From assembly GCF_026571515.1 (NCBI RefSeq), contig NW_026863406.1, forward strand, positions 1 to 64,000: 64,000 bases of DNA. The letters are read 5' to 3'. The DNA is from Ruditapes philippinarum (Eukaryota). The translations under genes were made by a program, and so were the position numbers. Shown in pieces: positions 2,821-51,900 of the stretch (the stretch's first letter is position 1; each line of letters opens with the position of its first letter). Under the pieces are notes generated by a model, which had not been told where the DNA came from, did not search any database, and saw nothing but the letters and a program-made list of their open reading frames with translations.

Positions 2821-5800
2821 ATGGATACATCTAGGACTACCTTTTGTAGATTCTCACCACTAAGAACCCCAGATATGAAGCAAAATCACATTAAAAAGGT
2901 GATAGTTTATTGGAAATGGTAAAAATAATACCGTTACCCTGATACTGATTCTATTTTATTAAAACATATGTCAAGCTGCACATTTTTTTTTCACCTAGTG
3001 ACAATCTGCGCCCAACGGGGGACCGTGACTGCATATAGCTCAGCCTCAGAGTTTAATTGGCACTGCTCTGAAACCCTGAGAAATTCAGGGACGAATTTCA
3101 ATAAAGTAGGGGAGTATGTCACAGTTCAGAACTGTTCACTATTTAGGGGAGATGATGTGTTAGTGGCTGGATAGCTCAGTCGGTGGAGCCACGGTACAGC
3201 ATTCAAAGGGTCCCTTGTTCAAGTCCCGGTCAGGCTGCACATTTTTCTCACCCTGTGACACATACAAGTCATAATGTCTTGGACATTGGGGATAATTTGT
3301 CCCGGATATTAACTAATTAAGTAACTGTCATGGAAACGCCAAGGAGATCATTTATGTCTTGTAAAAGAAAAGAAATTTAAAATGATTTTATTGAAGCAAA
3401 ACTATCACAATTTTAAAGCCACACAGTTTGCAAGGGACTTCAACTGTTTAGTAACCTAGTAAATATATAGGAAATACTGACACTATATGTCACTAATTCC
3501 GTTGATTGTAAATCAGTATGACGCTTTCAACCAAAGAATCGTAAGTTATCAAGACCAATTAAATGATCAATCAGAAGATTGTTTACGGTAATACCATCAG
3601 GGCCATTTGGACAAACATGTCAGTGAATATTATAATTAACAATCAGCCACTGTCAATTGACTCCACCTTTGTCCGGATATTGACTCCACATAATGCTAAC
3701 TTACTGATAACATGATGGAATTTAGTATTCAGAAATTGGCAATTTTTTTAGCAACATACATGTAGATGAAGTTTGTAGAGAAATATCCATACTGCAAATA
3801 GTCTTATGCTAATCTTAGAATGATAGAATTCAGTTATAGAATTCACAGACCCTCACTGCATCCCAAATTGAGAGGTAAACTGCAGGTTAATTTAATGTTT
3901 ATTCTTTGTGTGCCATCATAATATTTGCCCATCAAACATCAGTTGATGCCAATTACCGCTCGAAAATTTTAACTTGTTAATGTGTCTTTCTCTCAATTCA
4001 GGGTTTATAAGTTCAAACTCTTTTGGGGTTATTTCCTTACACAACATTGTTCTGGTGAAGAAGTGCATGGGGCATTTCAGCGGAAAATATTAGCTTTTTT
4101 AGGGGAAAATATACCTATTTTGAGCTAGGGGAAACAGCCTTTATTCGGCTGTAAAAATACAGGGAAAAAATCACTGTAATTTAATGTTTATTCTTTGTGT
4201 GCCATCATATTTGCCCATTGTAAACATCAGTTGATGCCAATTACCGCTCAAAAGTTTTAACTGATGTAAATGTGCCTTTCTCTCAATTCAGGGTTTATAG
4301 GTTCAAGCTCTGTTGGGGTTATATTTCCTTACACAACATTTGCATAATTTTGGTTAGTTAATTTCAGGAAGTGGACTTGAGTATGATATGAAGTTTCAAG
4401 TTTTCATCTGACTCTTAGTCATGTTCATATGTTTAAACTAGCAGGCTAAGAAAATTTGCAGGTCATCTTGAAAATAAGTTCAGACAATAATAAAACCTAA
4501 TGTACTTCCTTACAGCCAAAGTGATACCTGAAATTTACTTTAAAATCTGATGAATGGGGGATATTTACAATGGTCTTGTTATACTGCTTGTAAGAGTGTT
4601 GGACTGTGGATTGGACTTACTGCCGTAATCTGGAGTGAAAACTACCAACACCACCACCACCACCATTTACCCAAATTGAGATGAAACTGCCTTTGTCACC
4701 AGTATTTGTACAGGACAGCCTGCAGTCTGAGTGTTGCTAATAAAACTTTCATCTTGAAATCCCTAATATTGATATTGACAGTTCCAAGATGTGGAAGCTG
4801 GAAAAGTCTTATTTCACAAGTTCAGCAGGTCAATGGTATATTCAGCAGGTCATGGTCAAACATGTAGTATTTTGTTTGGTAAGACGTTTTTTTCAAGTTT
4901 GAAAATAAGATACAATCTAAGAGTTTTTTAAAATGTTTTATGAATTAATATTCTGTTTATTTTCCTAATATAGCTTGACCTACGAGACAAAAATGTGAGT
5001 GACACAGAATCATTAGCATCAGTGGTGACTTCAGATATTCGTAGACTGGCACATTCTGTGACTAAGAAACTGAAGGAGAGTTCAAATGCTGTAATGATGT
5101 CGTCAGATGATGATCTCTTTATATCTCAGGTGAAAGTTTATTAGAACAGATTATTTCTTCAGAGAATATCTCGAGACTTCACTTTATATTGTTATATTAT
5201 ATTTTAGCTTCATCATGTAAGTAGAGAAATATTAATACACTTGCTATACATCTTTGCCTTTATTGTTGTAATGGTCGAAAAAAGTATTGATGTAGGTTAA
5301 CAACATAAGTTCAATCATATGGCTGAGTGGCTAACATATCGGACTCGTAATTTAAGGATAGCTAGCTGCATTGGTTGAAACCCTGTTAGGGGCAGACTGT
5401 TGTTTCTCCCAGCAAGAAACTTTATACTCATTGCTCAGTACTGGTTGGTTCCTGGAATGGATTTGAAAGTGTGTCTATAAGTTTCTTCACAATTAAACTA
5501 AGATAAACTTATTGCAAAATATTTACTTAAACTGTTTTACTCACTTTCGAGGCCTCCACCTGGACTAATCGATATTGGAGTTACATGAGGAAATATGGTC
5601 ATGATTGATGGAAGGCTCAAAACCTTCCTTGGATTGAAAGGCAGACAAATTGTAGACCAAAGCTTCCCGTTTACACTGATACATTTTATTTTAAGAAGGT
5701 TGTTCATTGTGCAACACTGTTACTTTGGTTATAAGTTATAACTCCCAGGATTTGATCTCTGTTTATAATAAAGTTACGACATTTCAATAATAGAGATTTG

Positions 5801-47214: not shown

Positions 47215-48344
47215 TTTTTAGTCCCCTACCGGTTTACCGGAGGGGACTTTAGGTTTACCCTCCGTCCGTCTGTCCGTCCGTCTGTCTGTCCGTCCGTCTG
47301 TCCGTCTGTCAGTCCGTCAGTCCGTCCGTCCACAAAACTGGATCCCGCGATAACTTGAAAAGTACTGAAAATATTTTTATGAAACTTGGTATATGGATAG
47401 ATGGCAGTATGGAGATTATGCACGTTATTTTCTTTTCTTCCTATGTCGAAAATTCTGGTTGCTATGGCAACAAATAGGCTGAAAATATGGCAAATTTTAC
47501 ACATAAACTGGATCCCGCGATAACTTGAAAAGTACTGAAAATATTTTTATGAAACTTGGTATATGGATAGATGGCAGTATGGAGATTATGCACGTCTTTT
47601 TCTTTTCTTCCTATGTTGAAAATTCTGGTTGCTATGGCAACAAATAGGCTGAAAATATGGCAAATTTTACACATAAACTGGATCCAGTGATAACGCAAAA
47701 AGTACTGGAAATATTTTTATGAAACTTGACATATTGGTAGATGGCAGTCTTGAGATTATGCATGTCTTTTTCTTTTCTTCCTATGTTGAAAATTCTGGTT
47801 GTTATGGCAACACATAGACTGAAAATATGGCAAATTTTACACATAAACTGAATCCAGTTATAACTCAAAAAGTACTGGAAATATTTTTATGAAACTTGAC
47901 ATATGGGTAGATAGCAGTCTTGAGATTATGCATGTCTTATCCGTTCTTCCTATTTTGATAAAATATCAGTTGCCTTGGCAACAAATAGGCTTAAAACATG
48001 GCAAATAAAACAATATTTGTGATTAGTCAAAAGAGCTGAAAATTTTTATGAAATTGCATCTTTAATTCAAGAGTTATCTCCTCTTTAAGAATTTTGCTTT
48101 TAAAATTTTATATTTTGGTAACAGGGATGTTTCAAATATTAACTTTAGAGTGTCCTTCAGTCCGTCTGTCTGTTCATAAAAACTGTTTCCTGTGATCACT
48201 TTTAAAGAACTTTTCCAACAAATTTACTTAAAATAGAGAAAAATTGAAACATTAGTGAATGGCCAATGGCCCTTCAGAATGTTGATGGGGTTCTAACCGG
48301 TAGGGGACTTATGGATTGCTTGCAATACTATGATAATTGCTTGT
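47215..48344 (+). mobile_element. HINE/pearl-like element with ~4 x 170 bp repeats
   Basis: TTTTTAGTCCCCTACCGG start, (GTCC/GTCT)n, AAACTGGATCC units spaced 170 bp apart, 3' ACCGGTAGGGGACT sub-terminal IR plus a short hairpin. Confidence 0.85.
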
Positions 48345-48905: not shown

Positions 48906-51900
48906 TCACTTCTTGCCAGATTTCTTTATCCCACCACCACCTGCAACATAAAAATAGAGAATTTAAGATCATAATGTCTTTATAACTTCCATTGACCAAT
49001 TTACATAATCAGTTACTTCCATTGTTCGTCAAAATCTTGAATATTATATTTGCATTTATAATTTTTAAAAAAATCAAAACAAAAACATTCCAAATAATTT
49101 TACAGTTTATTTACTTCTATTTCACTGTTAAGCAATCTTTCAACATTTAACCTGCAGACAACATTAAACATGGTGGCCATATGTGGCATCAAAGGTCCTC
49201 ACATTAACACTCTGATTATACAGTGTACACCTGTGGATATATCATATACTCGTTACATCCAAATTGTCTTCCTTCCTAATCTTGTATAATTTTCTTTTGT
49301 ACCACACTCAAAGCATAAACATGGCCATAAGAAATCCTTTTATAAAGTTCTAAACAACTTTTTAACACTGTAAATGGACGTTTATGATAAAGATTAATAT
49401 GGCTAAGACAGGCTTTCACACCTTCACATACAACTATATTTTGATTATCAGAAGGCATGTGCTGATCTCCAATAATTTTGAATCGAAATACCCAGGTGAG
49501 TTAGTGAACATGCTACAAAGTTTCATTGCTCTATCAGTTTCACTTTTGGTGCAACATGTCACAGTCACACAAAATGCTCTATGTAAAGAAATTGGAATAA
49601 AAAGCATGTGCAAATCTATAAATTGCCCCTAACAAAAAGTGGTTGGAGAATAAAATTAAACAATAGGGCCATGATGGCCCTAGATCGCTCACCTGACCCA
49701 TCAAACTCATCCGAACAATTACCTAGACAAGCATTCTGACCAAGTTTCATGACCACTACAGTGTTAACAAGGATTATCCATATTTGAGCAGTGTGACCTA
49801 GTTTTTTACCCAGGTGACCCATATTCAAACTTGACCTAGAAATCATCAAAACAAACTTTCAGACCAATTTCCAGGATAATTGGATCAAAACAGTAGCAAG
49901 TAGAGTGTTAAGAAGATTTTTCTATTTTTAGCTCTGGTGACCTAGTTTCACATGCGATTTCGAACTCATCTGAGCAATTACCTAGACAAGCATCCTGACC
50001 AAGTTTGATGATAATTGAGTCGAAAATGTGACCACTAGAGTGTTAACAAGGTTTTTCCATATTTGGGCGGTGTGACCTACTTTTTCATCCGAGATGACCA
50101 ATGTTCGAACTTGACTTAGAAATTATCAAAACAAACTTTCAGACCAATTTACAGGATATTTAGATCAAAACAGTAGCCACTAGAGTGTTAACAAGATTTT
50201 TCTATTTTTAGCTCCTTTGACCTAGTTTTTCATCCGAGATGACCCATGTTCAAACTAATCTGAGCAATTACCTAGACAAGTTTCCTGACCAAGTTTGATG
50301 ACACTTGTGTCAAAAGTGTGACCACTAGAGTGTTAACAAGATTTTTCTATTTTTAGCTCCTGTGACCTAGTTTTTCATTCGAGATGACCCATGCAGGTTT
50401 AAACTCATACAAGCTATCACCTAGACAAGCATCCTGACCAAGTTTGATGATGATTGAGGCAAAAATGTGACTGCTAGAGTGTTAACAAGGTTTTTCTATT
50501 TTTAGCTCTTGTGACCTAGTTTTTCATCCGAGATGACCCATGTTAGAACTCATCCATGCTATCAACTAGATAAGCATCCTGACCAAGTTTGACGATGATT
50601 GTGGCAAAAATGCGACCGCTAGAGTGTTAACAACTAAATGTGAACGGACGAAGGCCGACGGACAATCATCGATCCTAAAAGCTCACCCTGAGCATGCTCA
50701 GGTGAGCTAAAAAAATCATGGTTTGAACCAGTAGTTTATAGAATTTGAAAAACATGTTTTGCATACCCAAAGGACCTTTTTGTCCTGCTTTTGCCTTGGC
50801 TGCTTCTAAAGCTTTTTGCTGCTCTCTTTGCTTCTGTTTGAACTCCATTTCATCCTGCCAAAAGTAAAATAAATGTAAACTATAGTCAAATCTGGCATAT
50901 CTAATTTTCTTACAAAATGTAGATTAATTTTGTTATTTAACTAGAAATGTGTCCATAGGACACGGGTGCCCCCATCGCGCCACTGTTCTGTCATTTTTAC
51001 TAAGTCAAGGGAAATAACTCTACAAATACTGGATAAATCCACAAGCGAAACCCCAGGTGCAAATCTAAATAATTATGCTGAGCAACCTGCCCATAAGGTT
51101 TAATGACTATGTCAAATCCTTTTTGAGTAACTTGCGACACAAGTTGAAAATTGCAAAAATTTTCTAAGTGAAGGGCAATAACTCTGAAAATACTAAATAA
51201 ATCCAGACGAAAATACCTGGTGCACAACTGCACATGCTGATCAATATTCCTGTAAAGTTACATGACTCTAGGTCAAATACTTTTTGAGTTACGTGCGACA
51301 CATGTTGAAAATTGCAAAATTTTACTAAGTCATGGACAATAACTCTGAAAATACTAAAAATATCCAGACGAAAATACCCAGGTGCACAACTACACATGCT
51401 GATCAACATTCCTGTAAAGTTTCATGACTCTAGGTCAAATACTTTTTGAGTTACATGCGACACAAGTTGAAAATTGCAAAATTTTACTAAGTCAAGGGCA
51501 ATAACTCTGAAAATACTAAAAATATCCACACGAAAATACCCAGGTGCACAACTACACATGCTGATCAACATTCCTGTAAAGTTTCATGACACTAGGTCAA
51601 ATACTTTTTGAGTTATGTGAAACACAAAAGTGAACGGACGGACAAGGGTAAATCTAAATGCCCGCCACTAACGTGGGGGCACAAAAATCACAATAATTAT
51701 GGCAAAATCCTTAACAATTCACATTTCTACATTTATAGGTATATCTTTTAACAATTAAGATGAAAATCTGAAGGGAACACACAAAATTTAACTATTATGG
51801 TAGAATAGTACATTATACATTCAGGGCTCATCCTGGGGGGAAATTTTAGGGAGAAGTGACTTCCTCGCGAAAATTAGGGAGAAGGGAAACAACCCAATGT

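What the first reader, a model, noticed from the sequence alone, without database searches (positions are those of the whole stretch)
2969..3260. Miniature LTR retrotransposon carrying a tRNA-Lys-derived Pol III promoter inside its LTR
Seen: CATA TSD, TG...CA LTRs, Lys-type PBS, a ~110-bp non-coding interior with a CCCTGA-GAAAT-TCAGGG hairpin, a PPT, and a 144-bp 3' LTR containing tRNA-Lys(TTT)-like A and B boxes. The 5' LTR has lost exactly the tRNA cassette through a deletion between two GTCA motifs. Known: plant Cassandra TRIMs carry 5S rRNA in their LTRs, and I recall tRNA-bearing equivalents described as Ajax (not checked here). Inference: this is a SINE/LTR hybrid transcribed by Pol III and mobilised in trans by an LTR retrotransposon; this copy is probably silenced by the 5' LTR deletion. 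It would easily be mis-annotated as a tRNA pseudogene or SINE.
Basis: partly seen in the sequence, partly recalled or inferred. Interest (0 to 1): 0.72.

Follow-up and report, generated by a model that had tools for sequence, protein, structure and literature searches.

The report
Clam Helenus mini-retrotransposon, damaged copy
This is a damaged copy of an abundant 394-base jumping element of a known kind (Helenus), whose end repeats carry a tRNA-like promoter; it is new only in occurring in a venus-clam lineage and in sharing a small hairpin with the host's full-size retrotransposons, which likely helps it borrow their machinery.

Summary
The element is real, and it is a known kind: Helenus (Kojima 2024), not Ajax, which carries 5S. 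The family is LTR(144)-internal(106)-LTR(144). 16 of 19 two-LTR copies have 4-bp TSDs, 5 of 19 have identical LTRs, and the LTR end occurs 1,596 times exactly. The PBS matches the 3' end of a host tRNA-Lys(TTT) gene 18/18; a minority variant matches tRNA-Lys(CTT). The closest published families, compared by eye, are oyster Helenus-3_CGi, -3_CVi and -4_SaGl. The cassette is Lys-like only in its A/B arms. Two additions: the host is a venerid clam, outside the mollusc range listed in the paper; and a 7-9-bp hairpin just before the PPT is shared with 6 of 7 integrase-bearing families sampled here. I found no paper describing that hairpin; it is likely a cis signal. Pol III transcription was not shown. 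This scan already filed the family as Helenus elsewhere in this genome.

The parts
2965..2968 (+). Left target-site duplication (CATA)
   Evidence: 16 of 19 two-LTR family copies have 4-bp TSDs
2969..3003 (+). 5' LTR remnant (35 bp): LTR positions 1-5 joined to 117-144 by a 111-bp deletion between GTCA microhomologies; promoter lost
   Evidence: junction absent from 30 of 30 other loci examined; present in run X15
3006..3023 (+). Primer-binding site; 16/18 to the family PBS, which is 18/18 complementary to host tRNA-Lys(TTT) 3' end plus CCA
3080..3099 (+). Pre-PPT hairpin; family form GAAATTCG-AGGA-CGAATTTC, inner pair lost in this copy
   Evidence: similar hairpins in host Gypsy-type elements
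3108..3114 (+). Polypurine tract AGGGGAG, 2 nt before the 3' LTR
3117..3260 (+). Complete 3' LTR, 144 bp, TGTCAC...GTGACA; 14 differences from young copy L005, 9 of them at CpG sites
3165..3237 (+). tRNA-like cassette (decayed); Rfam tRNA 44.5 bits in young copies, with mispaired acceptor and anticodon stems
   Evidence: not detected in the window copy
3172..3183 (+). A box TAGCTCAGTCGG, intact
3216..3226 (+). B box, two substitutions from the family form
3242..3246 (+). T5 run, likely Pol III terminator; the only run of 4 or more T on the + strand of the intact element, present in both LTRs
3261..3264 (+). Right target-site duplication (CATA)

Best explanation
This is a decayed copy of a Helenus-type non-coding LTR mini-retrotransposon, whose intact copies are likely transcribed by RNA polymerase III from the tRNA-like A/B boxes in the 5' LTR and likely reverse-transcribed and integrated by a host Gypsy element. 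Shown: the architecture, 4-bp TSDs, recent copies, solo LTRs and tandem arrays; a PBS matching host tRNA-Lys; Gypsy elements in the same genome with the same PBS and 4-bp TSDs; and a shared pre-PPT hairpin. Inferred: Pol III would start near LTR position 49. Most transcripts would stop at the T5 run of the 5' LTR as ~80-nt RNAs. A read-through fraction would give a ~330-nt genomic RNA ending at the T5 of the 3' LTR, with the cassette serving as R; further read-through could feed tandem arrays. tRNA-Lys(UUU), and sometimes Lys(CUU), would prime the minus strand. The hairpin beside the PPT would be a cis signal for packaging or plus-strand priming. This copy lost its 5' promoter after insertion and is likely dead as a source.
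For: 394-bp structure in the best genome matches. 16 of 19 two-LTR copies have 4-bp TSDs and 5 of 19 have identical LTRs. Rfam tRNA hit inside each LTR and no 5S hit. PBS 18/18 to an intron-containing tRNA-Lys(TTT) gene. Among 44 interiors, 28 carry that PBS, 5 the Lys(CTT) form, 3 a hybrid and 8 other variants; two forms are expected if the PBS is recopied from the primer. Gypsy elements with PR/RT-RH-INT order use the same PBS (L073, L075, L076 over 18-19 nt; L213 over 19 nt) and have 4-bp TSDs. Definition and oyster relatives in PMC10886601. Read-through and arrays are reported for Cassandra (PMC7215508 passages).
Against: No direct sign of a Pol III transcript. In four unstranded RNA-seq runs no place has many starts or ends, both orientations are near equal, and 34-76% of reads run on into unlike flanks. 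The read share (0.002-0.03%) is at or below the family's rough genomic share (at least 0.02%). A/B boxes are only slightly better conserved than the rest of the LTR (non-CpG differences 3.3% and 2.5% against 4.3% in U3). No coding element among the 39 stretches compared shares sequence with the family beyond the LTR end and PBS, so the partner is not identified. The most abundant integrase family sampled lacks the hairpin. No empty site was seen for this locus.
Confidence: 0.9

Rival explanations
1. Same element and same Gypsy helper, but the genomic RNA is made by Pol II (from U3, or by read-through from host genes); the tRNA cassette is a passenger or an RNA-structure element.
For: A T5 run follows the cassette in both LTRs and would stop Pol III early. 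RNA reads look like read-through. The whole LTR folds into a long U3/U5 hairpin (z -2.85).
Against: A and B boxes are kept while the anticodon arm is not tRNA-like. The same pattern is reported across Helenus. U3 is only 48 bp.
Confidence: 0.2
2. A tRNA-derived SINE or tRNA pseudogene inside a chance LTR-like context.
For: ARAGORN and Rfam call intact LTRs tRNA; isolated 144-bp copies exist.
Against: Fixed TG...CA ends, PBS, PPT, uniform 4-bp TSDs and no tails. Isolated copies are full LTRs, several with 4-bp TSDs, i.e. solo LTRs.
Confidence: 0.02
3. The short 5' LTR is an ancestral, tRNA-free LTR or a subfamily, not a deletion.
For: The junction is clean and keeps TG...CA ends.
Against: 30 of 30 other loci carrying the junction motif (of 87 matches) have LTR sequence upstream of it. 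The remnant retains the 3' end of the cassette. Reverse transcription would make both LTRs alike.
Confidence: 0.03

Closest known systems
Helenus (TRIMp3), oyster families Helenus-3_CGi, Helenus-3_CVi, Helenus-4/4B_SaGl (Kojima 2024, PMC10886601)
   Same: tRNA-like LTRs of about 140 bp with TGTCAC...CCTGTGACA ends, a T-run after the cassette, a tRNA-Lys PBS, the same pre-PPT hairpin core, a similar PPT, 4-bp TSDs and tandem arrays (supplement read by eye).
   Different: A distinct family: 5 of 6 family motifs are absent from the supplement and the sixth hits a scallop family (line breaks could hide matches). The host is a venerid clam, while Table 1 lists only Pteriomorphia among molluscs.
Ajax (Kojima 2024) and Cassandra
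   Same: TRIM with an internal Pol III promoter in the LTR; Cassandra also forms arrays and self-complementary LTRs.
   Different: Their cassette is 5S-derived. Ajax makes 5-bp TSDs and uses tRNA-Leu.
biv-TRIM (Satovic et al. 2019, PMC6934838)
   Same: TRIM of venerid clams with solo repeats, arrays and an internal hairpin.
   Different: 202-218-bp repeats, 77-80-bp interior, no canonical PBS, and a conserved central segment not seen here; no tRNA cassette is described in the parts read.
Host Gypsy elements with a tRNA-Lys PBS (L071-L073, L075, L076, L213)
   Same: Same PBS, 4-bp TSD, and a hairpin with a GGA-type loop before the PPT (imperfect in L075).
   Different: Coding, long LTRs, and no similarity to the family beyond the LTR end and PBS.

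Membership tests
Helenus | Non-coding TRIM under 1000 bp with two LTRs | tested here: met
   394 bp = 144+106+144
Helenus | tRNA-like sequence with A and B boxes inside the LTR | tested here: met
   Rfam RF00005 44.5 bits in both LTRs; boxes located
Helenus | PBS complementary to a tRNA 3' end, and a PPT | tested here: met
   18/18 to host tRNA-Lys(TTT); PPT
Helenus | 4-bp TSD (animal families) | tested here: met
   16 of 19 two-LTR copies and this copy
Helenus | Cassette unlikely to be a functional tRNA | tested here: met
   Mispairs in acceptor and anticodon stems; isotype calls flip between Pro, Thr and Ile
Helenus / TRIMp3 | Transcription by Pol III (proposed but not validated for Helenus) | tested here: inconclusive
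   Unstranded fragmented RNA-seq shows no start or end
Helenus | Mobilised by Gypsy (animal families) | tested here: inconclusive
   Gypsy elements share PBS, TSD length and hairpin type; no single partner identified
Ajax / Cassandra | 5S rRNA-derived sequence in the LTR | tested here: not met
   No 5S match at E up to 10
Ajax | 5-bp TSD | tested here: not met
   4-bp TSDs
tRNA-derived SINE | tRNA head at the 5' end, 3' tail, variable TSD, no PBS or PPT | tested here: not met
biv-TRIM | 202-218-bp repeats, 77-80-bp interior, conserved central segment | tested here: not met

The most novel reading that the evidence does not exclude
A short hairpin with a purine-rich GGA-type loop just upstream of the PPT is a general, so far undescribed cis signal of many animal Gypsy elements. 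Helenus strips its interior down to PBS + this hairpin + PPT, so a 106-nt interior would define the minimal RNA that Gypsy particles recognise. Helenus also reaches heterodont clams, which implies an origin older than Pteriomorphia or a transfer between oyster and clam lineages.
Probability: 0.45. Interest if true: 0.55.

Novelty: new member of a known kind. Interest (0 to 1): 0.3.

Why it matters
Practically, well over a thousand LTR copies in this genome can be mis-called as tRNA-Pro/Thr genes or SINEs. For the field, it extends Helenus beyond the mollusc range listed in the defining paper. Kojima 2024 states that it is not known how a TRIM's dependence on its autonomous partner is maintained. 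The hairpin shared by Helenus and host Gypsy elements, and the terminator present in both LTRs, give two small, directly testable handles on that question. The copy in the window is itself an ordinary damaged insertion.

Tried and rejected
ARAGORN and Rfam on the window found nothing, because this copy is too decayed. A ribozyme in the interior was considered: no Rfam match, and folding z was only -1.35 and -0.51. No host tRNA closer to the cassette was found: all 30 loci examined of 79 A-box matches were family LTRs. A degenerate hairpin+PPT pattern gave 22 matches against 39 for the control, and the hairpin core without the family gave 68 against 66. These counts show no enrichment; only the context was informative (9 of 30 loci were followed by a PPT and LTR start). 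The pair count on alignment A1 was above all 500 shuffles, but two loop lengths were mis-registered, the +1 slide scored nearly as high, and half of the rows had been found by the hairpin pattern, so it is weak. No empty site was found: X16 and X17 lack the flanks. No partner was found by sequence similarity. The Cassandra 2008 paper was not held. A recalled likeness between this hairpin and a plant chromovirus integrase end motif could not be confirmed (0 papers) and is not used. Complex prediction and structure tools were not relevant.

Full report
Observation. The window shows CATA | 35-bp TG...CA remnant (2969-3003) | 113-bp interior | 144-bp TG...CA LTR (3117-3260) | CATA. ARAGORN and Rfam see nothing in this copy, and it has no second copy in the window. 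A genome search returned 95 matches from the 40 candidates scored out of 2,509.

Family anatomy. I analysed 24 of the 30 loci for TSDs, leaving out the window itself and five overlapping or rearranged loci. Nineteen are LTR(144)-I(106)-LTR(144) elements of 393-395 bp; 16 of these 19 have 4-bp TSDs and 5 have identical LTRs. The other five are arrays of 3-5 LTRs, none with an exact TSD. Solo LTRs with 4-bp TSDs also occur. Exact counts are 1,596 for an LTR-end 14-mer (control 3) and 420 for an internal 18-mer (control 0); both are lower bounds. In young copies LTR positions 49-121 score 44.5 bits as tRNA, with mispairs in the acceptor and anticodon stems, and there is no 5S match. ARAGORN calls them Pro or Thr. 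Against host tRNA-Lys(CTT) the cassette matches 48 of 73 positions, mostly in the D and T arms, so 'Lys-like' applies to the promoter arms only.

This copy. Its 3' LTR differs from young copy L005 at 14 of 144 positions, 9 of them at CpG. The 5' LTR lacks positions 6-116 between two GTCA words, which removes U3 and most of the cassette. All 30 loci examined of 87 matches to the junction motif were point-mutated longer LTRs, so the deletion appears private to this copy. A contig of run X15 carries the same short LTR with the left flank, another carries the right flank, and no empty site was seen.

Primer. Host genes ending in the exact complement of the family PBS exist in clusters. One of four examined is called tRNA-Lys(TTT) with a 19-nt intron, two are called with an unresolved anticodon and one is not called; the match with CCA added is 18/18. 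Canonical tRNA-Lys(CTT) genes match the minority PBS. Of 44 interiors, 28 have the TTT-type PBS, 5 the CTT type, 3 a hybrid and 8 other variants. That LTR reverse transcription recopies the PBS from the primer is established knowledge, so two primers is the simplest reading (inference).

Identity. I read the whole main text of Kojima 2024 (PMC10886601) and parts 5-7 of 11 of its supplement, plus term searches of the whole supplement. Helenus is the tRNA-bearing group and Ajax the 5S group; animal Helenus make 4-bp TSDs; Pol III use is proposed but not validated. By eye the closest families are oyster Helenus-3_CGi, -3_CVi and -4/4B_SaGl; no identical family was found. A host gene in the window (OTU1) is 91% identical to the Mercenaria protein, against 63-72% for named pteriomorph proteins, so the host is likely a venerid clam. 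The paper lists only Pteriomorphia among molluscs and the supplement has no hit for five heterodont names; unread parts could still bear on which genomes were screened. 'Helenus' with 'bivalve' returns only that paper. biv-TRIM differs in size and content (PMC6934838, parts 1-2 of 5 read).

Helper candidates. Among 30 of 74 PBS matches examined, several belong to coding LTR elements. Pfam shows gag, protease, RT, RNase H and integrase in Gypsy order. L073, L075, L076 and L213 share 18-19 nt of PBS with the family; 4-bp TSDs were read for L071, L072, L075, L076 and L213, and L073 is likely. None of 39 stretches compared is similar to the family beyond the LTR end and PBS.

The pre-PPT hairpin. 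Elements found by PBS alone had a perfect 7-bp stem with a GGA loop just before the PPT in 4 of 5 cases (L071, L072, L073, L076); L075 has a mismatched version. A Leu-primed coding family (L162) has nearly the family's hairpin, but it was found by the hairpin pattern. I then took 20 of 150 integrase-zinc-finger hits; these were not checked further with Pfam. The 3' end was located in 18, which fall into 7 families. Six families have a perfect 7-8-bp stem with a purine-rich loop next to the PPT, while the most abundant family (10 of the 20 stretches) has none. One of the six (L212) was picked knowing it had the hairpin; without it the count is 5 of 6. Background under the same rule is 21 of 533 host windows for the stem alone and 1 of 533 with the loop motif, which I defined after seeing the data. 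The families are related, but their stems differ in sequence. By eye, similar hairpins precede the PPT in published Helenus of oysters, scallops, ribbon worms, wasps, coelacanth and sturgeon, but not in all families (for example LTR-11_DR). The Helenus paper's main text has no 'hairpin'. Searches found no description; the one relevant hit describes a hairpin after the 5' LTR of fungal Copia (PMC5445492, passages), and passages of PMC13570524 do not mention one. The library lacks most subscription papers, so the claim of novelty is soft.

Mechanism. The only T-run of 4 or more on the + strand follows the cassette in both LTRs. It is the least variable LTR segment (7 differences in 425 cells), though T content and alignment may bias that figure. 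A Pol III transcript would have to read through it once to give a ~330-nt genomic RNA, in which U5 is predicted to pair with the downstream U3. Read-through into arrays is reported for Cassandra (PMC7215508, passages). Four RNA-seq runs hold family reads, but they are unstranded, show no start or end peak, and their share is no higher than the rough genomic share. They neither support nor exclude Pol III transcription.

Verdict. New member of a known kind: confidence 0.9 overall for the explanation, and higher for membership alone. Interest 0.3, raised slightly by the new host lineage, the two-primer signature and the hairpin shared with Gypsy.

Noticed in passing
window:53903-55597 (- strand): Young 1.7-kb LTR element with identical 183-bp LTRs, a 5-bp TSD (AGGCT), a PBS and only an integrase frame (H2C2 + rve); an internally deleted element.
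   Followed up: partly
L119-L122 (G000:C14685, C15637, C5004, C14355): Clustered, partly tandem (about 650-bp period) tRNA-Lys(TTT) genes with a ~19-nt intron and a Lys(CTT)-like acceptor end; ARAGORN mostly fails to assign them.
   Followed up: partly
L005:1588-1638: About 280 reads in each of X21 and X22 join the 3' part of the interior to one unlike upstream sequence, probably a truncated copy in a well-expressed host transcript.
   Followed up: no
L013-L015, L083/L084, L081, L082, L108: Inverted or nested family copies, and the same solo LTR with the same flanks at several loci, suggesting it is carried inside another repeat.
   Followed up: no
L202, L208: Two hairpin + PPT-like units about 200 bp apart before the 3' LTR of a Lys-primed integrase family.
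   Followed up: no
L065:7600-8300: Non-coding GC-rich stretch with a hairpin + PPT and a Lys/Ser-like PBS remnant; possibly another small LTR element.
   Followed up: no
window:19892-20806 (+): Single-exon OTU1/YOD1 deubiquitinase gene, used to place the host lineage.
   Followed up: yes
window:8369-9825, 47331-48006, 49694-50633, 50995-51627: Tandem arrays with periods of about 145-170 bp.
   Followed up: no
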